From contig CAUYUJ010000002.1 in NCBI GenBank assembly GCA_963575745.1, positions 1,922,001 to 1,986,000 of the forward strand: a stretch of DNA of 64,000 bases. Reading direction: 5' to 3'. The translations under genes and the position numbers were made by a program. The notes under the pieces are model-generated. The model did no database searches, was not told the origin of the DNA, and worked only from the letters and a program-made list of their open reading frames with translations. Below are positions 5,491 through 21,900 of this stretch, in pieces. Within the stretch, counting starts at the first letter, position 1, and each line of letters begins with the position of its first letter. The stretch is from Prorocentrum cordatum. Its lineage: Eukaryota.

Positions 5491-5629
5491 GGCCTCTGGC
5501 CGCCGGCCAGTGCAGCCGATCCGTGGCGCTCTGGATGTTGGTGGTTGGCACGACGGCGGCGACGACGACGACGACGATGACGACCCCGACGCCGACAACG
5601 GAGGACTAACGATTAACGGGAGGACGGAG

Positions 5630-6630
<1,001 letters not shown>

Positions 6631-6633
6631 ACT

Positions 6634-7522
6634 TGTGGACCCCAGGGGGTGCTGGTTCACCAGCGGGTGCGCAGAATACAAGATGTTCTCTTTCATCGCT
6701 GATTTCTGACTCTGCCAGTTCGTTATCGGCCACTGCGCTCAAATATGCCAGCAACTCGGCCTGGGAGGCTGGAAGCAGCCAGAATGGGCCCCACTGGGGC
6801 CGAGGTGGGAGCCCGAGAGCTTCCCTGAGGAAGAACTCGGCAGTTTCAGCCAGACGACGCTCCCAAGAGTTCACGATGGAAGCCAGACTGCGGCCTCCCC
6901 TGGATCTGCGGCCGCCCCGGGCCACCATATACGAGGGGGATGGGAAGAACAGATGTGTTTCTCCAACCCCTTGCTTGAGCCAAAGTCCACAAACATGTAG
7001 ACTAAGAGCCAATCGCATGCAGGCGTGGATTCGCTCTGCATTTGGTTGGCCCCCTACCCCTACAGGCTCATGCTGGCGCAGTGTCGCTCGCATTCCCCTG
7101 TGAGGCGTGCTCGGGCCTGTGCCTGCTATGCTGCACAGCTGCTGACTCCTATATCCAGCTGTGCAGCCCGTTACAAAACAAATCGCTCAAAATGGTCCCG
7201 CGGCGTTCCGCTGTCCCATCGGCCCACGGGGCCAGGGGGAAAAAACACAACATTTCATCACACGGGCGTGGTCTCCTAAGCCCGGTCTTAAGTAACATGT
7301 TATACATATGCCGTGCTATGCTATGCCTCACGCACCGCACAGCACGGCAACGAAAATGTAACGACATTCGGCCCTGTCGAGGCTGATGCAACACAGTGGC
7401 AGCAAATAATGAACGCTGCGAAGGTATGCAACACAGTGGCAGCAAATAGTGCAGAACATCTGATCACGTGCGCTGTCATGCTATGCCTCATGCACCGCAC
7501 AACACTTCACCCCCCCCACACA
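6634..7522 (-). repeat. Copia-1 3' LTR
   Basis: tgtggaccccagggggtgc...cacttcacccccccccacaca; near-identical to 14098-14991 (roughly 3% differences by eye). Confidence 0.95.
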
Positions 7523-7534
7523 CTCTCCTCCTCT
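7523..7534 (-). other. Copia-1 polypurine tract
   Basis: Minus strand AGAGGAGGAGAG immediately precedes the 3' LTR. Confidence 0.85.
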
Positions 7535-7651: not shown

Positions 7652-9223
7652 TCAAGCCAGAGCCCGAAGCCCGAAGTGCTGCCGGATCCTCGCTACGTGC
7701 TGGACCCCGCCGCTTTTCGTTAGTCCGTCCGCGCGTTGCTCCTGGGTTTGTACGTAAAGCAGGTCAAGCAGCCCTCGCTGCACTCTGCTCCGGATCGCGT
7801 TCACCTTCGTGTTCAGGGCTCGCGTCCGCCAGCTGCCAACGCCAGAATTGACCTGGTTGGCCGCTTGATTGTCACCGTGCAACGTGGCGCGGATCCTGAG
7901 CATCATGCTCTCGAGGGTCGCACTCATCGAGCTCTGCATGGCCTCCCCGACGGCCAAGGAGTTGACCTCGGCCTCGCATGTGGAGAATGGCACAGTCGGC
8001 TGGCGCACCGAACGCCAATCCACGAGCGAGTCCCACAGGTAGGTCGCCACGCCAGTCTGTGCACCTACGTCTTCGAACGATGCATCGGCGAAAGTGTTGA
8101 CCGCGAACGTCCCCACGTCGGTGCCCTCGCCCCTCTCGTAGACGATGCCGTGACCGCGCGTGCCGGCGAGGTAGCGCAACACCTTCTTGCCAAAGGCCAG
8201 AGCAATCGCAGGCCTGCGAGTGGCCAAAGCCGCCACACGCGACGTGGCGTAAGAGATATCTGGGCGCGTGCGGCTAGCAAGCCACAGGAGGCCGCCAGCC
8301 ATGCGCTGGGCCAGGCTCACCTCGCTGAGGTCGACATCCCGCTCGTCGCCGTCGAAGTCAAGGAACTCCCTCTCGAGATTGATGGACCCGTTGGACTTGC
8401 AATCACACGGCCCCCACTTCTCCAGCATTTCCTCCAAGTAATTCTTCTGGGAGATGCTGATGTCCCCGCCCCCGACGGAGATGTCGATGGAAAGGTAGCG
8501 GACCGTGCCTGGGCGAGAGGGCCCAACGATCGGTTGGCCTGACGTTCTCCACAGCTCCCCGATGGACTGCTGCACTGCCTCCACCACGGCCCCCCTTCCG
8601 AGGATCAGGAAGTCGTCCACGTACGAGAGGAGATACCCTACCGGCTCCCCGGACTCGCTCTCAATGATCGGCCAAACTGCGGGGTCCGTTGATTGCACCA
8701 GCTTGCAGTCCTTGCCGCCGATGCGGACGACCATGCTCTCCAACTGTGAATCTCGTTCCTCCGCCCACGCGCGGGGCGACACCCGCAACCCGTAAATGGC
8801 TTTCTGGGCCACCCAGAGCTCCCCCTCCGGCACCAAGCCGAACTTGACCATGGCGGCTGGCGGACGGACGACCACCCGCTTGTGGTCGATAGGCAGCCAC
8901 GCGTTCAAGAACGCTGTGGAGACGTCCATGGCGCCGACGTCCCAAACTCGCTTTGCCGCGATCGCCAGCGCGGCCCACAGCGAGGAGACGTCGAGGTTCG
9001 CCGTGTACACAGGCTCCGAGCTGTCCGCCTCGAAGTTCCCGCACACGACTGCTCGCGCCTTCTTCCTGCGAAGGCCAGCTTCGTCGGGCGATTTGACGCC
9101 CGGCACGACCTTCCTTGGAAGGATGTCCTTGGCCTTCACCGTGGTCCGCTCGTGCTGCGTGAGGCTCGTGAAGACCTGCTTCTCCTGGATGCTGGTGAGC
9201 TCGTTTCGAGCGCCTGGCGCCAC
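7652..9223 (-). pseudogene. pol: Copia-1 reverse transcriptase + RNase H
   Basis: KKARAVVCG, DVSTAFLNA, KAIYGLRVSPRAW, SYVDDFLI, TRPDISYA, FADASF, STCEAE, DNQAA, QRADGLTK; frameshifted from the upstream integrase frame near 9200. Confidence 0.95.
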
Positions 9224-11130
9224 TCCTCGCGTTGGGCCCCGACGCTCTTTGACAAGACGCTCATAGGGACGATGTTCGTGCCGGAGTCGCGCACGATCTC
9301 CTTGAACTGCACTGGGATGTCGTCGTACTCGTCGTCGTCGTCATCCTCCTCCTTTTCCTTGGCGCCCATGGGGGCGACGGTCGAGTTGATCTCGTCGCGA
9401 TAGCGGAACATCTGCATGTGCACGCCCTCTGCCGAAGGAGTCACCGCTGTCGCTCTGGAAGCCGCAACTGCCGCACCAGGTCGGCATCGATGGTCCCGGG
9501 TGTGATCGACGTGCCGTCCTCGGCACGCCGGGCAAGACCATCTTGGCCCTGCGTTTGCACCAGCGTCGAAAGGAGGCCCCCGCACAGGTCCACGAAGAAG
9601 GGGACCAAGACGGCAGTGTGCATCGCGTGTGTGGGATCGGTGGGAGCGAGTCGTGCTCGCCGGGCACGTGATGTCCTTCAGGTCAGCTGAGAAGATGTCC
9701 TCTTTCTCCTCGCCTGCTCCTGCTGCTCCTGATCCTCCTCCTGGCTTTGCTGCCTCCTCGCTCTCCTCAGCGACTCCTCCTGGTCCTCCTCCCGGTCTTG
9801 CTGCCTCCTCGCTCTCCTCAGCGACTCCTCCTGGCACCTCAGCAGGGCGCGCTGGCGAGGGAACTACCACGTAGGAGCTGGAGGACTCGATGATCCACCT
9901 CCGCTCGGGCATCGTGGCCCTGGAGTCCACTCGCCCCACGAGCCATCCTCCTCCGCCCTCGTCGATCCCCAGAAAGACGCTCTCCACCGCCCTTGCCGCC
10001 TCAAAAAGGCTCCGTGGCACGTCCTTTACACGTGCCTTGACCGCTGCGCCGAAGGCTGGACAGCCCGTGGGGCGACCATCTGCCGCCGCCCTGGAGCACC
10101 AGGCGGCATGCTGCGTCGCGCACGCCCAGAGGGCCTGGCGATCCTCCATCGAGGGGAACGCGAGCAACATTGCCCTGGCTCGCTGCTTCACGAGCCCCAC
10201 GCCCTTCTCTGCTCTCCCATTCGCGTTGGACTCGTACCCCGGAGTGGAGGTCACGACGATCCCCTTTTCGGCAAAATGGGCGCGAACCCGCTCTCCAGTG
10301 AGCTCAGAGGCTCGGTCGCCATGCACGCGGTACACGACGTCGGCGCCCTCGAAGAGCCGTCGCAACTCCGCGATGATGCGGTTCAGCGCCTGGATGCACT
10401 TCTCCGGGTGCTTGCTTTCGAGCGGCACCGCGAAGTACCACGTCCTCCTCGCCTCGGAGCCTCCGTCGCCCTGCCCCTCGGCAGCGTCGTCATTCATGTT
10501 CCCGGAAGCCTCTCCGGGAACATGATCCGCAGGCTCCGCGATGATGGTTGGCTCGGGTTCGCCGCGATCCTCCGGCTGGCCCGGCCCCCTGGCTGGCCGC
10601 GCGGCCGCGCCGAGCGCTGCAGCCACTTGCGCGAGCAACCGTCGCACGGCCAAGCATCCAACCGGCGAGGTCGAGCCAGCTGCCACTGCGACCCCTGCAG
10701 CTCCTCCTGGTTGTGCGGGTGGTTCTCCTCCCACTCCTCCTGTTCCTCCAGCGTCCTCCTCAACGCCCGCATCGGCGCGAGCTGCCTCCTCGCGCAACGC
10801 GCGCGGCGCTAGGTCTGCGTCCGTGGCGACGGAGAACGCGCCAAGGAGGAATTAGGTGGCCTTCCGCCCAGCGTCTTCTGGCCGCCCACTGGGCCACCTG
10901 CCCGCGAGGTGCGGGCCAGATAAGTCCACCGACAGCTGCCCGCCAGGGCGGGTCGCCGCGTCGCGACGGAAGTGCGGTTTCATTCTGCCGGGGGCGCCGC
11001 GGCAGAGCCCGCAGTTCTTATCGAACTTCACGTGCCCGTTCTCCGCGTGCTCCCCCAGCGCTGGATGCGGCACTGCCCCTGCAGGCCGCGCCGCTGCCAT
11101 CGCGCGCAAACCTCGCGCGAGCGTCGCCAT
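9200..11130 (-). pseudogene. Copia-1 integrase and linker
   Basis: HHCC (HAENGHVKFDKNCGLC), LSVDLSGP, in-frame TAA at 10852-10854 in KAT*FLLGAF, acidic insert, YFAVPL, VHGDRASEL, NGRAEKGVGLVKQRARAML. Confidence 0.9.
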
Positions 11131-13740
11131 CGCGGCGCATCATCTTGCGCCGCTCTTGCCGTAAGATCTCGGCGTTCTCCTCCGAAATGTAGAGGGCGCC
11201 GTCGATCCGCTCAAAATGGACCTTCCTGCCGTCGGCCAGCTCCGCGAAGCAGTACGCCGGGTCCCACGTCATCTTGAGGCCGAGCGCCTCGATGTAGGAC
11301 GAGAGAGGAAACAATCGCTGAATGTCATCGCCGGTCACGTACACGATGTCCTGCTGCATCCGCGCCTCCACTTTCCCCGTCGCTGTCCGAAGTTGGACTT
11401 GGGCGCCGCGAACCGACGCAAGATCAGAGACTCCGCGAAGCTCATGCGTCGCCCCGGTATCCGCGAGCAGCAGCTTCGCAGACCGAGCGCCGACCTTGGC
11501 TATCGAGATGGTCTTCGCCGAGGGCCCCGCCTCCCAGAACGCCAGCTCGTCCGAGACCTGGGCGAGCGAGCCCTCGGGCGCTGCACCCATCCCCATCAGG
11601 CTGAGGAGCTGGGCTGAAACCTCCGCCCTCGCAGCCTGCGCTGCGGTTGCCTCAATCGATCCGGCCGCGGGCGCCGAGGCGGTCGGGCTCGTCTCACTCC
11701 TCTCTCCTCCTCTCTGTCCTCGTCCTCGTCCTTCTCCTGATCCTGCCTCTGGGCACTCAGCTGCAGCTGCGCGCGGAGGAGCGCGAGGCCGAGGGCACTC
11801 GTCGTTCCGGTGCTTCGTGGAGCCGCAATTGAAGCACTTGCCATCGCTCGCCGCGAGGCGTCGGTGCTTCTGGCGGCAATTCGCCCCGTGGTTGCACCTA
11901 GAGTCGCGGTCGAAGTACGGGCAAAAGCGCTCGCTGCCCTTGCCGGTGTCCTTCTCCCTGTTCTTATCCTTGTCCTTACCTTTGTCGCCGTTCTTGTCCT
12001 TATCCTTGGTCTTATCCTGATCCTTGTCCATGCCATGCCCTTTGGGGTCTCTGCCACCGGTCTTCAGGGCCAGGGCTGCCACTCGAGCTGCCTCGCTCTT
12101 GCTACCCTCGCTGCTCGCACCACCTGCGAACTCGCGGGCTTCGGCGCTGAGGTAGCGCCACAATTCGTCAACCTGCGCCTGCGTGCAGACGCCGCCGGAG
12201 AGACCATGGAACACGAGGAAGCCATAGTACCTGTGCTTCACCTCCTGGTCGCTCTCCACCATCTTCGCCACGATCGTCTTCAAGGTCGTGAGCTGCACCG
12301 AAGGGTCCGGCGCGTTCACGCCGAGGGAGGCCAACCGCGTGACGTTCAGCATCCAGCGCTGTAGCTCCTCGCAGGTGTTCTGCTTCTCGACGGCGCGCCC
12401 CTTCGAGACCGCGTCGAGGGTGTAGTCCTTGTCGGCAGAGGTCCCGGGCCCTGCCTCCACGAAGGCGCCGAACAGGATGTCCACGGTCGAAGTCATCCTC
12501 GTCGCAAGGCACTGCGACGTGACGCCAGCAGGCATGAGGTGGAGAAGAAGACTTCGAAGGCGAAGCTCACAACTGCTAAAGTTGATCGCCTCAGCCTCCG
12601 CCGCGATCCAAATCACCAGCTGGGATGGCCGAATCCCCGGGCGCTGCAGGGGGCCATGGGACAGGTAGCTGCGATGAGCCTCGCTGACCACCGCTACCAC
12701 GCGTGCCCAGTAAGCCTCGATCAAATGATGGAGGCCCCCCAGGTCGAGGGTGATCCGCTGCAGCCACCTGTCGAAGATGGCCGCCTTCTGGCCCGCACTG
12801 CACCCCTTGCCGAAGGTCAGCACGGGCAAGTCGGAGGCCTTGATCCTGGCCAGCACGTTCTCGAGCGTGCTGTCTCGCCCAGGCTGCTGTGGGACACCGT
12901 CAGCAGCAGCAGCAGCAGCAGCTCCGCCGTACGGTGGAGGTGGAGGTGGTGCACCGCCTCCTGGTCCTCCGAAGCCTCCACCGCCAGGGCCCCCAGGTCC
13001 ACCAAAGCCGCGAGGCTGCCCACTTGGCCCGAACCCGCCTCCTGGGGCGCCGGGCCCACCGAATCCGTGAGGAAATCCACTTGGTCCGAGTCCGCCTCCT
13101 GGGGCCGCGGACCTTGGGTAGCTGCCAGCAGGGCCGCTGCCTGCTGCGCCAGGGTCGCCGCTCGAACCCTGGATCGGCCCTGGCCTGCCGCCCGAGCCTG
13201 TTCCGGCAGCACCTGCTTGAGGCGGCTGTTGGGGAGCACCTCCAACAGTTTCATCGCCCCCTCCATCCTGCTGATCTTTACGCCCATCATCACGACCTCG
13301 ATCACCACGAAGTCCAGGAGGGTCGTCGCAGCTGCCGCAGCCACCCTGCGGAGCCGTGTGGGGAGCACCGGCCGCACTCCAGGACTGGTCGTAGAGCTCG
13401 TCGATGTCTGTGGCGCCATGCCCCTGCTGGACGTCGACTCCACCACCTGCCCCGAAGGCCTCAGGGCTGACAGAGGCCCCTGAACGCGCGGACACGGCGC
13501 TCGCAGCTTCGGCGCGCAGCTGCTCATTCTCAGCGCGCAGCGCCCTCATCTCTGCACGCGTGGACCTGAGCTCTGCAAGAAGCTCTGAGGACACGTCCTG
13601 TCCAGACTCGCCGTGCGTGGGCACCTCGCGGCCGGACCCAGCGTCGGAGATGTCGTACTCCTCGAGGGCGCGGGGTTTCGGACCAACGGCAGAGGCGCCG
13701 AAGACGAGGCCTGAAGGGACAGTGGCGCGGCCGTCAGGCC
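11131..13740 (-). pseudogene. gag: Copia-1 Gag (coiled coil, Gly/Pro-rich, CCCH finger + CCHC knuckle) and aspartic protease
   Basis: CPYFDRDSRCNHGANCRQKH (CCCH), CFNCGSTKHRNDEC (CCHC), LLADTGATHEL (protease). Confidence 0.9.
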
Positions 13741-14091
13741 TCCGAGCGCCGACCTCGCTCCTTGGGCGGCCCCTATCGCGAGCCGCGCAGCGCCGCCCAG
13801 CGCGCCCGTCGCAGCTGCTCCGATCGCCTGGCCTGCCAACGCGCCGCCGCAGCCCATGGCACGGCCCAGGCCCTGGGCAGATGCCCGGAAGCGCGCCTGC
13901 GCACGGGCTGCGTCAAAGTCGTGCACGCAGGCGTAGCACACCACGATGCCTGCGCGCACGCCCACGCAGTGCGAGTGAACCTGCCAGCCGCAGCTCTCGC
14001 ACTGGACGCTCGGGCCGTGCAAGTAGTCGCCGCACGACCGGCACGCCCGAATAATCCATGGTGGTGTCGATGTCATCGCACTTGGGCTCAT
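13735..14091 (-). CDS. Copia-1 Gag N-terminus with PHD-type C4HC3 finger and Gly/Ala-rich segment (frameshifted from the rest of gag)
   Basis: MSPSAMTSTPPWIIRACRSCGDYLHGPSVQCESCGWQVHSHCVGVRAGIVVCYAC; ATG lies inside the PBS; downstream gag frame is open up to ~13735. Confidence 0.7.
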
Positions 14092-14096
14092 AACCC
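14084..14096 (-). other. Copia-1 primer binding site complementary to the anticodon arm of initiator tRNA-Met (half-tRNA priming)
   Basis: Minus strand GGGTTATGAGCCC 1 nt after the 5' LTR; complementary to GGGCUCAUAACCC of eukaryotic tRNAiMet. Confidence 0.9.
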
Positions 14097-14097
14097 G

Positions 14098-14991
14098 TGT
14101 GGACCCCAGGGGGTGCTGGTCCACCAGCGGGTGCGCAAAATACAAGATGTTCTCATTCATCGATGATTTCTGACTCTGCCAGTTCGTCATCGGCCACTGC
14201 GCTCAAATATGCCAGCAACTCGGCCCGGGAGGCTGGAAGCAGCCAGAATGGGCCCCACTGGGGCCGAGGTGGGAGCCCGAGAGCTTCCCTGAGGAAGAAC
14301 TCGGCAGTTTCAGCCAGACGACGCTCCCAAGAGTTCACGATGGAAGCCAGACTGTGGCCTCCCCTGGATCTGCGGCCGCCCTGGGCCACCATATACGAGG
14401 GGGATGGGAAGAACAGATGTGTTTCTCCAACCCCTTGCTTGAGCCAAAGTCCACAAACATGTAGATTAAGGGCCAATCGCATGCAGGCGTGGATTCGCTC
14501 TGCATTTGATTGGCCCCCTACCCCCACAGGCTCATGCTAGCGTAGTGTCGCTCGCATTCCCCTGTGAGGCGTGCGCGGGCCTGTGCCTGCTATGCTGCAC
14601 AGCTGCTGACTCCTATATCCAGCTGTGCAGCCCCTTACAAAACAAATCGCTCAAAATGGTCTCGCGGCGTTCCGCTGTCCCATCGGCCCACGGGGCCAGG
14701 GGAAAAAAACACAACATTTCATCACACGGGCGTGGTCTCCTAAGCCCGGCGGTCTTAAGTAACATGTTATACATATGCCGTGCTATGCTATGCCTCACGC
14801 ACCGCAAAGCACGGCAACGAACATGTAACGACATTCGGCCCTGTCGAGGCTGATGCAACACAGTGGCAGCAAATAATGCAACGCTGCAAAGGTATGCAAC
14901 ACAGTGGCAGCAAATAGTGCAGAACATCTGATCACGTGCGCTGTCATGCTATGCCTCATGCACTGCACAACACTTCACCCCCCACCACACA
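14098..14991 (-). repeat. Copia-1 5' LTR
   Basis: Direct repeat of 6634-7522; followed by the PBS. Confidence 0.95.
14153..14392 (-). CDS. 79-aa ORF inside the LTR, unknown function (second copy 6689-6928 with TGA changed to AGA)
   Basis: MVAQGGRRSRGGHSLASIVNSWERRLAETAEFFLREALGLPPRPQWGPFWLLPASRAELLAYLSAVADDELAESEIIDE*; 45 nt downstream of SL relic TTTGGCTCAAG (14438-14448). Confidence 0.45.
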   Translation of the reverse strand: MVAQGGRRSRGGHSLASIVNSWERRLAETAEFFLREALGLPPRPQWGPFWLLPASRAELLAYLSAVADDELAESEIIDE

Positions 14992-15921
14992 CGGGGAAGG
15001 GGGGGAGGAGGAGGAGACGGAGGAGGAGGAGGAGGAGGAGCAGGAGCAGGAGCAGGAGGTGGAGGAGGAGGCGTTGCGAGTTGCGAGCTATCCCACGTGG
15101 TGGTCGATACGAACTACGAGCGGCGCTGCAGCTCAGCCTTGCTAAGCAGTTTCGGCCACTTCCCGTCTTGAAGTCTGGACAGATACTCCCTTCTATGGGG
15201 TGCGATTTGGCGTGTGCAGTCCTTGGCTAACTCTCGCAACTGGGAATGTGCGAAATAGCCACACTGGGTGCAAAACCAAACCCTCTGCACACGAGACAAA
15301 CGCATAATATGGGACCCCTCGACCCAGCCCCCAGCAATATGAAGCCGCCCCCCCTCAGGTATGGAATCATATCTTTCACACACGTGAACGGGCTGAAAGC
15401 ACGAGGACGAGTGCCATTCGGACACAGTGGCCTTGCTGGCAGATCCCCAACACCTAGTACATTTATGCCTGGTCTCATCCAGGCAATGCTCCGAAACGAA
15501 GCACGAACAAACGACGGACGAGGAGGAGGAGGAGGAGGACCCCTCTCCCTCACACGCGCGGGTCCGCCACGCTCCTCGGTGATCATGCAGTCCAGCGTGG
15601 CTCTGATGAGCCGCATCCTCACGTGCATCGCCTTGCTCTCTACCTGGAAGACAGCCGCCCGAACCTCGTCGGCGACTCTCCCTGCCTCGGCCGCCTGCGC
15701 GGCCAGTTCATCAACACATGTGTTACCGATGGCAAGCCAGGCGGGGGTTCCCGAAGTGACAACTGGCTCACCCGTGAGGTGCGAATTTACGAATAAGACA
15801 GACACTTGGCCCTGTCGGGCGTCCAGCTCACCACCGATGTTGCGCCACAGATCCTTATCGGCCCCTGTGGGCCTCTCATGTCTTCTCTGATGGAGCCCCT
15901 TGGTCACAGCTTCACAGTCTG

Positions 15922-15922
<1 letters not shown>

Positions 15923-15968
<46 letters not shown>
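15923..15968. repeat. (TA)n expansion inside the LINE-C RNase H coding region
   Basis: Interrupts ...EHPVY|ITDCEAV... Confidence 0.9.
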
Positions 15969-15970
<2 letters not shown>

Positions 15971-18900
15971 GGATGCTCGGCAGTGCAGGTGAGAGCTAAC
16001 ACAAAGGCACGTAGCTCCCCTCTGGGTACTGACTGATCTTCGCCCACGAGAGGCCCCTTGACCGATGCACGAATACAGCACGGGTCATACGAACTCAGCG
16101 TAGTTATCGCAAGCCCAACTCTTCGAAACCTGGGGCCCCCAGAGTCTTTGCCCCCAGAAGCGTCTCCGAAAACAACCATGGGTTGCGTATCCGTTCCTCT
16201 GCCCAAGCAGTGCTTAAGTTCGGAGCTGTTCGTGCCTATCAAACTCCAGGCTTCCTCAACTGGCGGTGGTGGTATACGTGTCCACGCCGCTGGAATGAGG
16301 CCTCGTCGCCAGAAACATGAGTCAGCTGCATGCTGCGAGAAAGCTGCACTGATTAAATACTCAGAGTCTTCGTGCGCCTTGGAACCTCGATTTTCTGAAC
16401 ACTCCCAGATTCGATGAAACTGTGTCTCTGGTTTCTCCTGGCACCTGGGACATAAAACCTCGTGGCCCCCAGCCATCTCATCCTGTCGCGTCTGCCGGGG
16501 CCAAGATCCTCCTGAAGCAATAGAAGCCATGAGCTCCCTGATCCTGAGCCCCTGGCGCACAGTCTGTAGTTGCCTTAACAGCCTGCGCAATGAAAAATTG
16601 TCGACGCCGTGCTGCATTCCTTCTCCGCATAAATGGCGTGCAGCTTGGCGCCATTGTTTAGCCTGCACAGTTCTGCTGGTGAAATCCTGAAGAAGCGGAC
16701 CAGGGTCATCTTGCAAAATGTTTCCAGAAAGCTCTGAAAGGTGAAATTTCCACGCCTCCAGATCGCCCACGTGGTCTTCAGGAGCCCTCCAATGCCAGGG
16801 TGCCTCTGGTATCCAGCCTGCCTCCAAAGGATGCATGATGACCGCTCCGTTCGGCCCTCTCACCAACCTTGAACGTTGCCCCTCTGGCGCCTCTCGCAAG
16901 CGCTGCAACATATGCGGCCATGCACGAGCTATGCCTGGCCGCATGGCGGGAATAGTCAGATACTGCTGCAGCCAGAGAGCCAGACATGCCCGAGGAAGTG
17001 TATACCCTGGATCCCATCCTGGACTCCGAAGGTCGAGAAGTGTGGTTAAGCATCGCCCCCGTTTGCCTGACCCACATACATGGCCAATCTGGCGGCGGCA
17101 GCGCAACATGGCACTGCCGAGAACTCCATGCAGCTGATGGCCGTACATCTCAGCGGCCATGGTGCCAGCTCGCGTGAGCCTGCTAGTAAAATGATACCGT
17201 TTAGCTGCCCTTGCAAGCTTGACCACTTTGTTGTGCATGCTTGCTGCCTTTACCACCCGTTTGTTGCGCCGTTGACGTACATGACGTTTCCCCCCACCAA
17301 GATCAATTCCCAAGTACCTTGCACGGCTACACGGCTTGACTTCAGCTCCAGCCGCTCGTAGCTGTTTTGAAATACTCTGGGCATCTTCTAGATGGGAACA
17401 CAGCACAACACTGTTGGGCGAAACTGCGAGGCCTTCGTGCGTGAGCTGGCGACATGTGCCCATGAGCCCACGCACAAGGGATTGTCGGAGACTTCGTCTG
17501 GATCCATGGACTCGCTGGGACCAGTCGTCGATCCAAATGCGCGCCCTCATGCGTGGATGAGCAGATGCGACGCGAGATAAAATATAACAAGTAAGACATC
17601 GGGCAAACCTCTTGCCCCCACGAAGGCCCTGGACGATAGAGTGAGTAGGATAAATAGGCTCCGACAAAGCCCCACCTTGTCCCAGCGTCCTCGGCAGAAT
17701 GCACTGGAGCAGCTCGGGAACTAAACATGATTGGAGGGTGCCCCAGTCTGAGTGCTGCGGGGATGAGATAAAACCACTCCATCGCATCATAGAAGCCTTG
17801 AATATCCAGGAGCCCGTGCCCTGTTGAACTACCCAATACTCCCGATACCCCCTCCTCACATACCCTCCTGAATGCTTCGCATGGGGCCGCATTGCCAGTG
17901 ATGGCTGCGTCCCACATGGGCTCAGACTCTGCTGCCCAAGTCTTAACATGTGGCTCGCGCGCGAGACTCCGTATTCTAGCTGTCATTGGCAGAAGTCCAA
18001 TAACTCTGTCCCCAGACTTTGTTGGGTAAAAGCCGACCGATCGTGAGGCCCAGTTGAGCAGGCCAAACCAAAGTTTCCTCGATGACCTCGTAGAGTTTTG
18101 AAAGTTCTGCCAATGCTACGTCGGGCATCCGCTCGACGTCTGTCGGACTTAAAACATCCACCCCTTGGCCTGCTCGCGCTCGCATGGCGTGAGCCGCTTG
18201 TCTGGTGTCGGAAACTGAAAGCGCTTCGAGGGGGTCAGCTCGTGCCGCGACCCGTGCTGCCTCGAAAGCCTCCAGGATTCGCGTATCCTGGTGTACGCTC
18301 GCCTTGGTCCAGAGGTCCCGAAATGGTTTTGCCCGCTGATCGACCACGTCCTTGGGTTGAAATAACTCCTGGGAGCCCTGGGTGATTTCCTCAGCGGGCA
18401 CTGGGTTTGACTTCGTAGTTTTGTCCAAAATTCCTGGCGCTTCTGCGCCGGCAATCCACTCCTTGAAATCGTGAAGAGCAGAGCGCAAGGCGCGCCCTCG
18501 GCAACGCGATGCAATCTTCTTAGCAGATGCAACAAACAAGGCGAGTTTATCTTGCGTGGCGCGCTTCGCACTGGTGGCAAGAATTGATGTCCAAGCGTCC
18601 CTGGGCGGGTCGGACCCGCGCAAAGCCCTCGATGTCCTTGCTCAGGAGATTGCCCACCAAGTTGCTTGCGCGCTTGCTCAAGCTGCTGCTGCTGAATAGT
18701 ACCATTCGCTCGAGCTCTGTGATTGTGTAGCCGCTGAAGAACCGCATGTGTTTTCTCCCGCCAAGAAGTGAGCCAATCTCTATAAGGCACCACTCGACTC
18801 TTGGTTGGGTGGCGAACCTCCTGCGCCACAAAACGACATCCACCAGCTCGGCTAATGGATGGGGGCCCTGTCACTCCATGATGCTCGATACCGTTCGTTC

Positions 18901-21900
18901 CAACGTGGTAATCCAAGATGCGCACAAAGCCGACGCATCCTCGATTGAGCCAGCTCCGAACCTAGCGGCTACGGACGATACAAACACATCAGGAGGTGGA
19001 CAGTCCTTTGGCGGGAAAAGGCCTACAGCAGCGCGTTCTTTGATCCGCGTCTCAGCGGGGATGTGAAAGGCCATTGCAGGCTCGTCATTTCCTGGCGGGG
19101 GCGGCTCTTGAAATGGGCTGGGGGCGGGGGGAATGCATTCGTTGGTGAACGATGCTCGAGCATTGAGAGTGACAAGGCCCCAGGCGATTGACGGCGTGTA
19201 TTGCGGTAACTTAAATATGTGGGGGGGGCCTCTGGGTTGCACGCCCGAGGCCTCTCGTCGGTAGACTGCGACGGTTGAAACTCAGGCGCTGCCGCATTCA
19301 ACCTCGAGACATTGTGAGATGGAGCTGGCCCCCCCACTTCGGTTCCCGCCTCGGGGCGCCTTCCCGTGCCCACGACGGCGCGGCCATGAGATTGCCCACC
19401 CTCGGCAGGTCCCTTATCCGAAAAAAAAACAACTGCTTTGACTCATGCCCCCGTCAGCGTAGGCAGAAGTCACGTGCTCGTTAATGTTCGCTGACGGCGG
19501 CGGCACAGAGCTGGGCTCACAAGCCTTGGGCTCCGCCCCGCTGGGGCCTGCCCCTGCTCGCCGGCTCTCGTTCACGACGGCGTGTCTGAGGATATGCTTG
19601 GCATCGGCAGCTCCCGCAGCTGAGGCGACCGAGCTAGAAAGCTCGCCCGATGGGTCTGAAGATGGAGGTCCGAAATTTGGCTCCATTGCCCATGGGTCTT
19701 CGTCTAGATCTTTATATTCGTCATATATGTCAAGCTCGCGGTCTCGGTCGGGTTCGACCTCGACCCCTGCCTGCTGCACTGGGGACATATCATTAGTCTC
19801 TGGCCACAGATCACCGAAGAGAACCTCGTAGTGCTCTCGGCGTTTCTCAGCAGGCAGCTCTAACTTGATTCGATTCGCCTGCTTCTGTGCCTGCGTCTTG
19901 GAGCCTGGGGCGGCCCTCTGTTGGGGTCGCTCGACTTGCGACAACCTCGCAGGCACGGCTAAACAGCGCGTGATGAGCTGCTTACCTGACGAGCGCATGG
20001 TGATACATATGCCGCAGTGGGTCTTCCACGGCACAGCTCACATGGCCTCCACCCTCGCAATGCATGCTGCCGCTGAGTGGCTCCTGACAATGCAATCTAT
20101 ATGGCTGCCCTGCTGGCCAGCGTTGCAAGTGTATCCGATGGGAGCCTTAACAATCTCGCCATCCACGCGTGTGAGGAAACCTGAACGGCTGAGGGCGTCG
20201 GGTGAAAGATTGTAGTCTCCGACCGCCACCCATGGCAGCTGCAGTGAGGCTAAAAATGCCCCTAGACGACTGAAGCGTAGCATGTTGTCGCCTGTCAGAC
20301 CCACGGATGTGAGTCCATAAAATGTAACTAGGACGGCTGAGTATCCAGACATGTGGATGAGAGCTGCAGTGAGACCATCCGTGACCAACTGGCCATCGGC
20401 TAGAAATTCACTGAGAGCGAGCTGAGGTAGTAACGAGCGGGCCTGCAGATGACCCGTCGCAAGGATCCATTCTCCACCTTCGGTGGCCCTGTCGGCACCC
20501 TGAGCGGTGCAGGCACGGCCAGTCAACCTCGCCCCATTCGCAAAAATCCTGAGCTTAGCTTTGCGCGCCTTTGGCGCCGACTCTTTAGCAAGGTTGGCCC
20601 GCGAGACATGCGTCTCCACAAGGCAATAAAAAATCAAACTGGCGATGCTCACTAGCCTGCAGAGTGAAGCTCCACACCTCCCCCCCCCAATGGCGGTGAC
20701 GTTGCCAAACATGATACGTGTGACCTCATTCCCCCCTGGCCGTGCTCGTGTCGAGTACGGAGCGCCGCTGGACTCTGGCGAAGGAGCCCGCGTTGATGCT
20801 GGCGACGCTGAACTTGAGCAGGTACACGTGGGCCCACATACCGAGGCACCTAGTCACAGCTGGGACTCGTCGATGACGTTGCCAGCTGCCTGAACCTCGC
20901 GCTCCTTCTGCCTGATCGCTTCGAACTTGGCGTTCGAGATGCGCTCGGCCTCCGCTTGGATGTGTGCCTCCCGCGCGGCGCCTGCGACGGCTGTGGCGGC
21001 GGCGGCTGCTGCTCCTTCGCTGGCGCTTCCTGCTGGGGCCGCTGCCCGCGTGGGGGAGGCGCCGCCGCCGCCTGTGCCGTCGGCGCCGTCGTCGGGCTTC
21101 CTCTTTTTTCGCGGCCCTCTGGTGAATGTCTGCCTGCACCTGCTTGGCGCGCTCCATCCACTGAGATACCTGATCTGCTTTGCCTGACAACGTCTTCTGC
21201 GTCTCGACAAGCTCGGTATGCATATTCCTGAGCTCCTCCTTCTCGTGCTCCTCGCACTCGAGGGCCTCGATATCCTGGAAGAGCTGTTCGTCTCAGTGCA
21301 GGCCAAGGGGCTGCCTGTCGTCCTGGGTGTGCTTCTTGCGTCCATTGGCGGCCAGGCCCTCTTGCGATGCGAGGATCTCTGTCGCCTGCTTCCGTGCCAA
21401 CTCCGCCGCCGCAACCTCCAAGGCGATCTTCTTCTCCTTGGTGCGGGCGTTCTCGAGATTCTTCTCTGAACGTGTGACTGCACGAACTGCTTGTTCGCGT
21501 CGATTGCCGGCATCCCGCAGCGCACCATCAGCTTGCTGAAGAGCCTGGAGCACATTGCCCGCCTGCTGCTGCTGAGCAGCCTTGAGCTGTGCCACCTGGT
21601 TCTCGAGACTCTTCTTCAGCTGCGGGTCGGTCGCCGCTGCCAACGTCTGCTGCATGTGCGACAGCACTTCCACGTCCTTGGTGTTCTTCCCTCTTGGAGA
21701 CTGCTTGGGCGTGGACTGGTTGCTGTTGCCATTGCCACCACTCTCCTCGTCGTCACCCATGAACTTAACTGACTTCTTTAGGATGCCTTTCTTCGGTGAT
21801 GGCGAATACACTTTGACTTTCATGCCACATCGATTGCACTTCATCTCCCCCTGCATGAGTTTGTCATTCTATTCAGCTTGTCCGCAACCCTTGCATTGAG

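What the first reader, a model, noticed from the sequence alone, without database searches (positions are those of the whole stretch)
13927..14091. PHD-type C4HC3 finger at the N-terminus of a copia Gag
Seen: C-x2-C-x10-C-x2-C-x4-H-x2-C-x9-C-x2-C followed by a Gly/Ala-zipper-like segment, starting at an ATG inside the PBS and one frameshift (~13735) from the main gag frame. Known: PHD fingers read histone tails and occur in some non-LTR ORF1 and BEL/Pao Gag proteins; I do not recall them as a usual copia feature. Inference: possible chromatin-targeting module, notable in a lineage with largely non-nucleosomal chromatin.
Basis: partly seen in the sequence, partly recalled or inferred. Interest (0 to 1): 0.72.

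Follow-up and report, generated by a model that had tools for sequence, protein, structure and literature searches.

The report
Zinc finger on dinoflagellate copia Gag
A family of copia-type jumping genes in the dinoflagellate Prorocentrum starts its coat protein with a conserved two-zinc finger and a glycine-rich helical hairpin whose binding partner is unknown: a real and unusual add-on, but one more case of a known habit of mobile elements.

Summary
On the minus strand, 13927-14043 encodes C-x2-C-x10-C-x2-C-x4-H-x2-C-x9-C-x2-C, in an ORF whose ATG (14089-14091) lies in the primer binding site of a copia-type LTR element (LTRs 6634-7523 and 14098-14992). A relaxed PHD pattern occurs once in the window and in 0 of 100 shuffles. 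The module is conserved: 44 relatives were found among 1.84 billion cluster representatives, and 30 of 34 aligned sequences that span the finger keep all eight ligands. A fixed-length Gly/Ala hairpin with two GxxxG motifs follows.

Relatives carry the module in frame with Gag. This copy is broken by two extra bases at 13676-13677, not near 13735, and contigs from 3 of 3 sequencing runs lack them.

The fold is a confident FYVE/PHD-type cross-brace (pLDDT 92). Its nearest solved structures are FYVE and FYVE-related fingers (Z 4.3-6.8), with PHD fingers next (Z up to 4.3). Sequence profiles lean to PHD and C1, all below threshold. The hallmarks for histone binding and for PI3P binding are both absent.

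My reading is a Gag-borne tethering and assembly module with an unknown host ligand. Histone reading is possible but unsupported. It is a new variant of a known kind, of moderate interest.

The parts
14098..14992 (-). 5' LTR of the element (the element reads on the minus strand)
   Evidence: Direct repeat with 6634-7523, 96.98% identical over 895 columns, 22 mismatches and 3 gap openings. Its ends read TG..CA on the minus strand.
14077..14097 (-). Primer binding site. The 16-nt core at 14082-14097 is the antisense of a tRNA-Met(CAU) anticodon stem-loop and contains the ORF's ATG.
   Evidence: It lies directly after the LTR end. The same 16-nt core is present in L001, a relative only 36% identical in the module. 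In 19 of 20 IMG/VR loci scanned, the same 16-mer lies antisense over the anticodon of a tRNA-Met(CAT) gene.
14089..14091 (-). ATG inside the PBS, in frame with the finger. It is a candidate Gag start; an in-frame ATG further upstream in U5, about 14156-14158, is an alternative.
   Evidence: The peptide RVMSP encoded across the PBS recurs in relatives: 22 have RVMS[PS], 5 start with MSP and 2 carry variants, of 47 family proteins.
13927..14043 (-). C4HC3 cross-brace zinc finger (residues C17 to C55)
   Evidence: The finger-only model has pLDDT 92.2.
13873..13926 (-). Helix that starts at the last Cys pair (residues 56-73)
   Evidence: AF2 predicts a helix from residue 53 on, with pLDDT above 90 up to about residue 70. 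An acidic residue is conserved at positions 58 and 60.
13735..13872 (-). Gly/Ala-rich helical hairpin with two GxxxG motifs (residues 74-119)
   Evidence: It is exactly 46 residues long in 28 of 33 relatives. G87 is kept in 35/36, G91 in 34/35, G107 in 32/33 and G111 in 30/32. The best 19-residue Kyte-Doolittle mean has a median of 1.25 and a maximum of 1.40. AF2 predicts helices but with low confidence (pLDDT 42-55).
13676..13677 (-). Two extra bases that throw this copy's finger ORF out of the gag frame
   Evidence: All contigs covering the place in runs X1, X2 and X3 lack two letters here (table 4).
13631..13675 (-). Conserved linker motif PRALEEYDISDAGSG, the first gag-frame stretch shared with relatives
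13505..13585 (-). Heptad-like, coiled-coil-looking helix
   Evidence: Read by eye from the translation. Similar segments occur in P0005, P0010, P0014 and P0015. No coiled-coil predictor was run.
11018..13912 (-). Gag-protease open frame, stop to stop. It includes a Gly/Pro/Phe-rich low-complexity stretch (about 12923-13099), a conserved Gag core (12128-12865), CCCH (11864-11923) and CCHC (11795-11836) knuckles, and the protease DTG motif (11438-11470).
9913..11058 (-). Integrase-like region, in another frame, with an in-frame stop at 10852-10854
   Evidence: tblastn of P0003 residues 617-965, 49% identity. The stop was read. Pfam rve was not detected.
7658..9208 (-). Reverse transcriptase and RNase H region
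   Evidence: Pfam RVT_2, E 6.9e-13, 49.2 bits against a cut-off of 31.6. tblastn of P0003 residues 1039-1550, 54% identity.
7524..7534 (-). Polypurine tract next to the 3' LTR
   Evidence: Read directly on the minus strand.
6634..7523 (-). 3' LTR

Best explanation
The interval encodes the N-terminal module of the Gag protein of a divergent Ty1/copia lineage of the dinoflagellate Prorocentrum cordatum. The ORF opens at or just before an AUG that lies inside a half-tRNA-iMet primer binding site. After a short Ser/Thr-rich linker comes a two-zinc C4HC3 finger of the FYVE/PHD cross-brace fold. Its last Cys pair starts a long helix, which leads into a fixed-length 46-residue Gly/Ala hairpin with two GxxxG motifs. 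Then come a conserved acidic linker, a coiled-coil-like helix, a low-complexity region and the Gag core. I read the module as a tether and assembly device. The finger binds a host protein or peptide ligand that is still unknown. The hairpin and coiled coil bring several Gag N-termini together, so that weak single contacts add up and place Gag particles at a defined site in the cell. Shown here: the anatomy, the conservation, the in-frame fusion in relatives and the fold class. Inferred: zinc binding, ligand binding, multimerisation and any effect on localisation. The copy in the window is dead. It has two extra bases at 13676-13677, a frame change near 11060-11084, an in-frame stop at 10852-10854 and a frame change near 9205.
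For: Copia anatomy: LTRs, PBS, PPT, RVT_2 and gene order. Organism names come from the database. There are 44 relatives at E<=1e-3, 24 of them at E<=1e-10, among 1.84e9 representatives. One of the 44, P0046, is an unrelated repeat protein. Ligands are complete in 30 of 34 aligned rows that span the finger; the four exceptions each have one substitution. Ligands are also complete in 6 of 6 further long or related proteins that span the finger: P0005, P0006, P0010, P0029, P0030, P0042. In-frame continuity with Gag is seen in P0005, P0010, P0026, P0029, P0030 and P0042. It is also seen in one uninterrupted ORF covering PBS, finger, hairpin and helix on metagenome contig L001. The frame break is private to some copies, since 3 of 3 runs lack the two bases. 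The fold model of the finger alone has pLDDT 92.2 and pTM 0.71. Its neighbours are all cross-brace fingers: FYVE and FYVE-related at Z 6.8-4.3 with rmsd 1.8-3.7 A over 49-59 residues, and PHD at Z up to 4.3. Foldseek gives probability 1.00 for EEA1, rabphilin and RUFY and 0.96 for the BHC80 PHD finger. The hairpin has a fixed length and conserved glycines. Accessory reader or targeting domains on transposable elements are common (passages read).
Against: No partner, ligand or localisation was tested. No fold match reaches Z 8 or Foldseek E<=0.001, which the tool notes may reflect only a common arrangement. No Pfam family reaches its cut-off for the window's sequence. The hairpin is modelled with low confidence (pLDDT 42-55). 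Model coordinates could not be inspected, so ligand geometry was not checked. Four of the in-frame examples are eukaryotic gene models that may contain predicted splices, and I did not see the DNA of P0010 or P0042. Only P. cordatum is named among the sources; the rest are unnamed short ENA or JGI contigs, so the taxonomic range is unknown. The real start codon is not known.
Confidence: 0.55

Rival explanations
1. One reading: a true PHD-type histone reader. The finger binds a histone tail, for example H3, and tethers Gag or the pre-integration complex to the small nucleosomal fraction of dinoflagellate chromatin, biasing where new copies insert.
For: The ligand order is C4HC3 with PHD-like spacing. 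Pfam PHD is a sub-threshold hit in 25 of 38 members, best E 4.8e-4. The best sequence matches among solved structures are the p300, PHF13 and PHF23 PHD fingers, at E 0.04-0.11. PHD fingers appear among the fold neighbours: BPTF at Z 4.3 with 2.7 A over 51 residues, and BHC80 at TM 0.59. PHD is a common accessory domain of transposable elements. [quoted passage not shown]
Against: The score is below the Pfam cut-off: 12.0 bits against 24 for the window. The Trp two residues before the seventh ligand is present in 0 of 38 sequences, and the last loop is only 9 residues long (the hallmark is recalled). FYVE-type fingers outrank every PHD finger. C1_1 is a sub-threshold hit in more members (31 of 38) than PHD. 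The module sits on Gag, not on integrase, where the known targeting domains of LTR elements sit (for chromoviruses).
Confidence: 0.2
2. A membrane or vesicle adaptor, playing the part that the matrix domain plays in retroviral Gag. A FYVE-like finger binds a phosphoinositide or a small GTPase, and the moderately hydrophobic Gly/Ala hairpin lies on or in an endomembrane where particles assemble.
For: The nearest solved structures are FYVE and FYVE-related Rab-effector fingers. Examples are melanophilin at Z 6.8, FYVE domain-containing protein 19 at Z 6.4, RUFY at Z 6.0 with 2.1 A over 49 residues, Hrs at Z 5.6 with 1.8 A over 49, and EEA1 at Z 5.3. The helix that starts at the last Cys pair is as in FYVE domains. 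The position at the Gag N-terminus fits the role. The hairpin is rich in small and hydrophobic residues.
Against: The fifth ligand is His in 37 of 38 sequences, whereas FYVE fingers use eight Cys (the FYVE rule is recalled). The basic PI3P-binding motif before the third Cys is absent, since positions 27-30 read P, S/T/A, V/I, x. No WxxD motif is seen. The finger's median net charge is +1 (the motifs are recalled). Pfam FYVE_2 is a hit in only 4 of 38 members, best E 0.03. The hairpin's best 19-residue hydrophobicity is 1.40 at most, below the usual transmembrane threshold of about 1.6 (the threshold is recalled). The N-terminus has no Gly2 for myristoylation.
Confidence: 0.15
3. The finger ORF is a separate upstream gene, or is joined to gag by a programmed -1 ribosomal frameshift, rather than being part of one continuous Gag.
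For: In this copy the finger frame and the gag frame overlap (13546-13912) and differ by -1. The gene models of this locus (P0002) and of a second copy (P0006) both needed an intron to bridge the same region.
Against: Contigs from 3 of 3 runs lack the two bases, which makes one continuous frame. Relatives down to about 35% identity are continuous. I saw no slippery heptamer by eye around 13660-13740. The copy also carries three further breaks.
Confidence: 0.03
4. A chance Cys/His pattern in an open frame of GC-rich DNA, or a fragment of a host gene picked up by this one copy.
For: The window is 62.7% G+C, so long chance ORFs are frequent.
Against: The pattern is found in 0 of 100 shuffles. There are 43 true relatives with conserved ligands. 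The fold model is confident.
Confidence: 0.01

Closest known systems
PHD fingers carried by transposable elements (CR1-like non-LTR elements, several Chlamydomonas retrotransposons and DNA transposons, cnidarian retrotransposons with Pygo-like PHD)
   Same: A small C4HC3 cross-brace zinc finger added as an accessory domain to a mobile-element protein, thought to direct the element to chromatin (passages read).
   Different: Here it heads the Gag of a copia element and falls below the Pfam PHD cut-off. It lacks the Trp before the seventh ligand. It is fused to a GxxxG hairpin, and its nearest structures are FYVE-type. [quoted passage not shown] 2005) were not held, so I know them only through citing passages.
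FYVE and FYVE-related fingers (EEA1, Hrs, RUFY; Rab effectors melanophilin, Slp4, rabphilin-3A, RIM)
   Same: The best structural neighbours (Z 4.3-6.8). Same cross-brace, with the helix starting at the last Cys pair.
   Different: His is the fifth ligand. The recalled PI3P motifs are missing. There is no N-terminal helix as in the Rab-binding domains. Sequence profiles barely see FYVE (4 of 38).
Targeting domains of other LTR elements: the chromodomain at the integrase C-terminus of chromoviruses, and the methyl-CpG binding domain of arthropod Copia elements
   Same: A host-type reader domain built into an LTR retrotransposon polyprotein (abstract and passages of PMC6673714).
   Different: A different fold, a different position (the CopiaMBD and the chromodomain are not at the Gag N-terminus), and no evident host donor here: one search returned no cellular protein at E<=1e-3.
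Gag-borne tethers of retroviruses (matrix domain; MLV p12; foamy virus Gag chromatin-binding sequence)
   Same: Localisation of the particle or pre-integration complex by a part of Gag rather than by integrase. This works like the reading I favour.
   Different: No sequence or fold relation. This comparison is recalled and was not tested here.
Half-tRNA-iMet priming of Ty5 and Drosophila copia
   Same: [quoted passage not shown]
   Different: Here the AUG that this PBS necessarily contains is in frame with the Gag ORF and is translated as part of a conserved RVMSP peptide. I do not know whether that holds for Ty5 or copia.

Membership tests
PHD finger (Pfam PF00628) | Eight ligands in the order C4HC3, with C-x2-C ... 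C-x2-C-x4-H-x2-C ... C-x2-C | tested here: met
   Complete in 30 of 34 relatives. The last loop is 9 residues, shorter than the 12 or more that I recall as usual.
PHD finger (Pfam PF00628) | Score at or above Pfam's gathering cut-off | tested here: not met
   The window scores 12.0 bits against 24 and 11.2 bits. 25 of 38 members hit at E<=1, best E 4.8e-4.
PHD finger (Pfam PF00628) | Conserved Trp two residues before the seventh ligand, part of the core and of methyl-lysine cages (recalled) | tested here: not met
   Position 50 holds P, V, A, T or N and Trp in 0 of 38 sequences.
PHD finger (Pfam PF00628) | Fold superposes on solved PHD fingers | tested here: inconclusive
   BPTF at Z 4.3 with 2.7 A over 51 residues, TAF3 at Z 3.9-4.0, BHC80 at TM 0.59/0.59. 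All are below Z 8 and rank behind FYVE-type fingers.
PHD finger (Pfam PF00628) | Binds a histone tail | not testable with these tools
   Needs peptide binding assays.
FYVE domain (Pfam PF01363) | Fold superposes on solved FYVE domains, including the C-terminal helix | tested here: inconclusive
   Ranks 1-14 and 1-21 are FYVE or FYVE-related, at Z 6.8-4.3 with rmsd 1.8-3.7 A over 49-59 residues. No Z reaches 8, and no Foldseek E is at or below 0.001.
FYVE domain (Pfam PF01363) | Eight cysteine ligands (recalled) | tested here: not met
   The fifth ligand is His in 37 of 38 sequences.
FYVE domain (Pfam PF01363) | PI3P-binding motifs WxxD, R(R/K)HHCR and RVC (recalled) | tested here: not met
   The four residues before the third Cys are P, S/T/A, V/I, x. 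There is no conserved Asp after the Trp at position 12. Position 50 is not Arg.
C1 domain (Pfam PF00130) | An N-terminal His ligand 12 residues before the first Cys and a single C-terminal Cys (recalled pattern), plus the Pfam cut-off | tested here: not met
   Residue 5 is Ala. Two C-terminal Cys are kept (C52 in 37/38, C55 in 38/38). The window scores 15.8 bits against 26.5. 31 of 38 members hit below threshold, best E 6.3e-4.
RING finger (C3HC4 or RING-CH) | His as the fourth ligand, or C-x-C followed by a 7-residue gap to His (recalled) | tested here: not met
   The fourth ligand is Cys and the gap to His is 4. RING-type chains reach only about Z 3.0-3.7.
Ty1/copia LTR retrotransposon | Two LTRs in direct orientation, with the PBS after the 5' LTR and the PPT before the 3' LTR | tested here: met
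Ty1/copia LTR retrotransposon | Copia-type reverse transcriptase (Pfam RVT_2) | tested here: met
   E 6.9e-13, 49.2 bits against 31.6. Also found in the relatives P0029, P0030 and P0003.
Ty1/copia LTR retrotransposon | Integrase encoded upstream of the reverse transcriptase | tested here: inconclusive
   The region between protease and RT aligns to the same region of full-length relatives. Pfam rve is not detected in the window's ORF or in the six relatives scanned. Calling it integrase rests on position and on my reading of the sequence.
Ty1/copia LTR retrotransposon | Target-site duplication flanking the LTRs | tested here: not met
   The 5-nt flanks differ. Both flanks lie in a GGA/GAG trinucleotide repeat, so the boundary is hard to set.
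Half-tRNA-iMet primed elements (Ty5 and Drosophila copia type) | [quoted passage not shown] | tested here: inconclusive
   The 16-nt core lies antisense over the anticodon of tRNA-Met(CAT) genes in 19 of 20 IMG/VR loci scanned, out of 58 found. Those are phage tRNA genes. No P. cordatum tRNA-iMet was at hand, and the window holds no tRNA gene.

The most novel reading that the evidence does not exclude
The finger plus hairpin is a new kind of Gag-borne reader built on the PHD/FYVE scaffold. It recognises something specific to dinoflagellate nuclei: a divergent histone tail, a DVNP or HCc-type basic nuclear protein, or heavily modified DNA. It thereby docks particles or pre-integration complexes onto largely non-nucleosomal chromatin. 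That would be a targeting principle not described for any retroelement.
Probability: 0.1. Interest if true: 0.8.

Novelty: new variant of a known kind. Interest (0 to 1): 0.45.

Why it matters
Mobile elements repeatedly pick up small reader domains, and where such a domain sits and what it binds tells us how the element chooses its place in the cell or the genome. This one has three unusual features. It heads Gag instead of trailing integrase. It belongs to no curated family. It occurs in an organism whose DNA is mostly not wrapped on nucleosomes, so the usual histone-mark logic may not apply. If the ligand were found, it would give a handle on how LTR elements replicate in dinoflagellates, whose multi-gigabase genomes are rich in such elements. 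It could also supply a natural probe for a dinoflagellate cell structure. The start codon inside a half-tRNA-iMet primer binding site is a neat secondary point: the same AUG would be read by the initiator tRNA's anticodon in translation and in priming.

Tried and rejected
- The window's own genome is not held, so copy number, insertion sites and other copies could not be studied directly.
- A profile search for longer proteins with alignment A1 found nothing among 8000 crowded candidates. A search with P0029 residues 1-130 found only itself and one 95% relative.
With the window's peptide it found no relative in JGI metagenomes. With P0039 it found that protein's own contig only.
- The homodimer prediction of the 119-residue module gave no verdict (score 0.00, controls not run, alignment not used). 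It says nothing either way.
- The ESM Atlas gave only leads under 0.8 (double zinc ribbon, RING-type and C1-type clusters).
- The viral structure library gave no match at E<=0.001, and its top rows are assorted small zinc proteins.
- Earlier findings of this scan: none by sequence or by words.
- Transcription: the only RNA-library piece is one 151-nt contig, 90-95% alike, over 14025-14137 in a phytoplankton metatranscriptome (X16). That is not enough to claim expression.
- No target-site duplication was found, and I saw no slippery heptamer by eye.
- Literature: four searches found no paper describing a PHD or FYVE-like finger at the N-terminus of a copia Gag or in a dinoflagellate retrotransposon. 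The library lacks most subscription journals and Repbase reports, so this is weak evidence of absence. Chen et al. 2018 on Symbiodinium copia elements mentions neither PHD nor zinc (term search). Ke et al. 1999 and Kapitonov and Jurka 2003 are not held.
- Neighbouring long ORFs at 15114-20037 match no Pfam family at E<=0.01.

Full report
**What is in the sequence.** The finding lies in an LTR retrotransposon that reads on the minus strand. Two direct repeats, 6634-7523 and 14098-14992, are 96.98% identical over 895 columns. On the minus strand they begin with TG and end with CA. Between them lie, in order:
- a long gag-protease frame (11018-13912);
- an integrase-like region (9913-11058);
- a reverse transcriptase and RNase H region (7658-9208) that matches Pfam RVT_2 at E 6.9e-13, above the cut-off.

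A purine run (7524-7534) precedes the 3' LTR. The window is 62.7% G+C and holds only this one copy. Database names for the closest proteins, including a 100% identical partial gene model of this locus (P0002), give the organism as Prorocentrum cordatum.

**The observation.** Translation from the ATG at 14089-14091 gives a 181-residue ORF. A Gly/Ala-rich stretch follows. A relaxed PHD regular expression finds this one site in all six frames of the window and none in 100 first-order Markov shuffles.

**Conservation.** A HMMER search of the first 119 residues against 1.84 billion cluster representatives returned 44 proteins at E<=1e-3, 24 of them at E<=1e-10. One of the 44 (P0046) is an unrelated repeat protein.

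I aligned the window with 37 of the 44 (alignment A1). The seven left out were:
- the window's own partial model;
- five proteins of 564 to 1844 residues, for alignment size;
- P0046.

Of the 38 rows, 34 span the whole finger and 30 of those keep all eight ligands. The four exceptions each carry one substitution. All six longer or separately found relatives that span the finger also keep it: P0005, P0006, P0010, P0029, P0030 and P0042. Beyond the ligands, G26, P27, V29, V38 and V51 are nearly fixed, and H41 is kept in 27 of 38.

The segment after the finger is not loose low-complexity sequence:
- Between alignment positions 74 and 119 it is exactly 46 residues long in 28 of 33 rows.
- It carries two GxxxG motifs 20 residues apart, with G87 kept in 35/36, G91 in 34/35, G107 in 32/33 and G111 in 30/32.
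- Its best 19-residue hydrophobicity is 1.25 at the median and 1.40 at most, which is short of a typical membrane span.

**Is it part of Gag?** Yes. A search with the Gag core of the window found nine proteins. P0005 (37% identical in Gag) and P0010 carry the same finger and hairpin at their N-termini, followed by Gag. P0029 (1844 aa) and P0030 (1668 aa) run from the finger through to RVT_2. P0042 runs from the finger into the Gag core. Four of these are eukaryotic gene models and could hide predicted splices. However, contig L001 shows one uninterrupted ORF (230-1225 of 1250 nt) through PBS, finger, hairpin and the following helix.

In the window the two frames are offset by -1. When contigs of four public runs were laid on 13400-14400, every contig covering 13676 lacked two letters there. 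That was one contig in each of three DNA runs, one labelled with an organism and two seawater or marine metagenomes. Without those letters the finger frame continues into the motif PRALEEYDISDAGSG (13631-13675), which relatives have at the same place. So the break is at 13676-13677, not near 13735, and it is a defect of this copy. The gene model of a second copy, P0006, also needed an intron there.

The copy has further damage:
- a frame change between 11084 and 11058;
- an in-frame stop at 10852-10854;
- a frame change near 9205.

**The start codon and the PBS.** The 21 nt after the LTR end (14077-14097) contain the ATG. The 16-nt core is identical in L001, although that relative's module is only 36% identical in protein. 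Scanning IMG/VR for the 16-mer gave 58 loci. In 19 of the 20 I scanned, it lies antisense across the anticodon of a tRNA-Met(CAT) gene.

The core's reverse complement is three G:C pairs closing a seven-base loop with CAU at its centre, which I recall as the signature of initiator tRNAs. Ty5 and Drosophila copia are reported to prime from such a half tRNA-iMet (passages read). The PBS therefore has to contain an AUG, and in this lineage that AUG is in frame with Gag.

The peptide RVMSP encoded across the PBS appears in 22 of 47 family proteins. Five more start with MSP and two carry variants. Most of the remaining 18 begin downstream of where the motif would be. Many predicted proteins extend 10-27 codons further upstream into U5, as does the window (an ATG near 14156-14158). 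The true start is therefore open.

**Fold.** AlphaFold2 with alignment A1 gives pLDDT above 90 for residues 11-70 and 42-55 for the hairpin. The finger alone (59 residues, alignment A3) gives pLDDT 92.2 and pTM 0.71, with four short strands and a helix that begins at the last Cys pair.

- Foldseek against the PDB finds no match at E<=0.001. Its best rows are EEA1 FYVE, rabphilin-3A and RUFY FYVE (probability 1.00, TM about 0.6), with PHD fingers close behind (BHC80 at TM 0.59/0.59).
- VIA-align against 48,161 chains puts FYVE and FYVE-related fingers at ranks 1-14 (Z 6.4-4.4). Examples are Hrs at 1.8 A over 49 residues and RUFY at 2.1 A over 49. The first PHD finger, BPTF, is at rank 15 (Z 4.3, 2.7 A over 51).
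- The second look at Foldseek's top 1000 agrees: ranks 1-21 are FYVE-type, at Z 6.8-4.3.

All Z values are under 8, which the tool warns can mean only a common arrangement. For a 59-residue domain, though, the list is uniform: cross-brace fingers and nothing else near the top.

**Sequence profiles.** These lean the other way. Pfam C1_1 hits 31 of 38 members, PHD 25, C1_2 12 and FYVE_2 4, all below the cut-offs for the window's sequence. The best matches among solved-structure sequences are the p300, PHF13 and PHF23 PHD fingers, at E 0.04-0.11.

C1 is excluded by the ligand set, because two C-terminal Cys are kept and there is no N-terminal His. My conclusion is that this is an unclassified member of the FYVE/PHD cross-brace superfold, with PHD's ligand signature and FYVE's outline.

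**What it does.** Neither known function can be read off the sequence.
- The recalled hallmarks of methyl-lysine-reading PHD fingers are missing: Trp before the seventh ligand is present in 0 of 38 sequences.
- So are the recalled PI3P motifs of FYVE. The four residues before the third Cys are not basic, and the finger's median net charge is +1.

What remains is the general property of this fold: small, rigid adaptors that bind a peptide, a protein surface or a head group. Several things point to a module that places Gag somewhere in the cell. It sits at the very N-terminus of Gag. It is followed by a conserved helical hairpin with GxxxG packing motifs and by a heptad-like helix. It has been retained across families whose Gag cores are only 33-46% identical. 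Several copies acting together would add up weak contacts.

I put 0.55 on that general reading. Within it or beside it, I put 0.2 on histone or chromatin reading and 0.15 on membrane or GTPase binding. A Gag-borne tether has precedents that I recall from retroviruses. Reader domains on transposable elements are well documented.

**Novelty.** PHD-type fingers on mobile elements are known, so this is not a new kind of thing. Three features are new as far as I could find: the position at the N-terminus of a copia Gag, the fusion to the GxxxG hairpin, and the lineage. Four literature searches found no description, within a library that lacks most subscription journals and Repbase.

Among the sources that carry names, only P. 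cordatum appears. The other relatives are short unnamed marine contigs, so the taxonomic range is open. The link to non-nucleosomal chromatin is attractive but untested. P. cordatum does encode all four core histones, and three were detected at very low abundance (passages read).

Noticed in passing
window 14077-14097 and L001 254-274: The AUG that a half-tRNA-iMet primer binding site must contain is in frame with the Gag ORF. The PBS is therefore translated, as the conserved peptide RVMSP. The same AUG would pair with the initiator tRNA's anticodon both in translation and in priming of reverse transcription.
   Followed up: partly
window 11795-11923: The nucleocapsid part of Gag carries a CCCH knuckle (C-x8-C-x5-C-x3-H) directly before the usual CCHC knuckle. 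The CCCH is also seen in relatives, where UniRef names them 'C3H1-type domain-containing protein' and Pfam zf-CCCH scores just below its cut-off.
   Followed up: partly
window about 12923-13099: A Gly/Pro-rich low-complexity stretch with repeated GFG and GGPG units lies between the N-terminal module and the Gag core. Relatives have comparable Gly/Pro/aromatic stretches at the same place. It may be a phase-separating or FG-like region.
   Followed up: no
window 5620-6660 and 14973-15090: Both flanks of the element are GGA/GAG/GAT trinucleotide repeats, so the element sits in a purine-rich microsatellite. No clean target-site duplication could be read.
   Followed up: partly
window 15114-20037, minus strand: Several long open frames (692, 221, 197 and 207 aa) lie just beyond the 5' LTR, with a (TA)n-derived YIYIYI run near 15930-15990. 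None matches a Pfam family at E<=0.01. This may be another degraded mobile element.
   Followed up: partly
window 14156-14202: The finger frame stays open upstream of the PBS into U5 of the LTR, with an in-frame ATG. The peptide there (MNEN..AHPLVDQHPL..) is shared with P0006 and P0011. This could be LTR-end conservation or a true upstream start.
   Followed up: no
window 7652-11139: Pfam recognises neither the Gag core, the protease nor the integrase of this lineage. Only RVT_2 is found, in the window's ORFs and in the six relatives scanned, which shows how divergent these dinoflagellate copia elements are.
   Followed up: no
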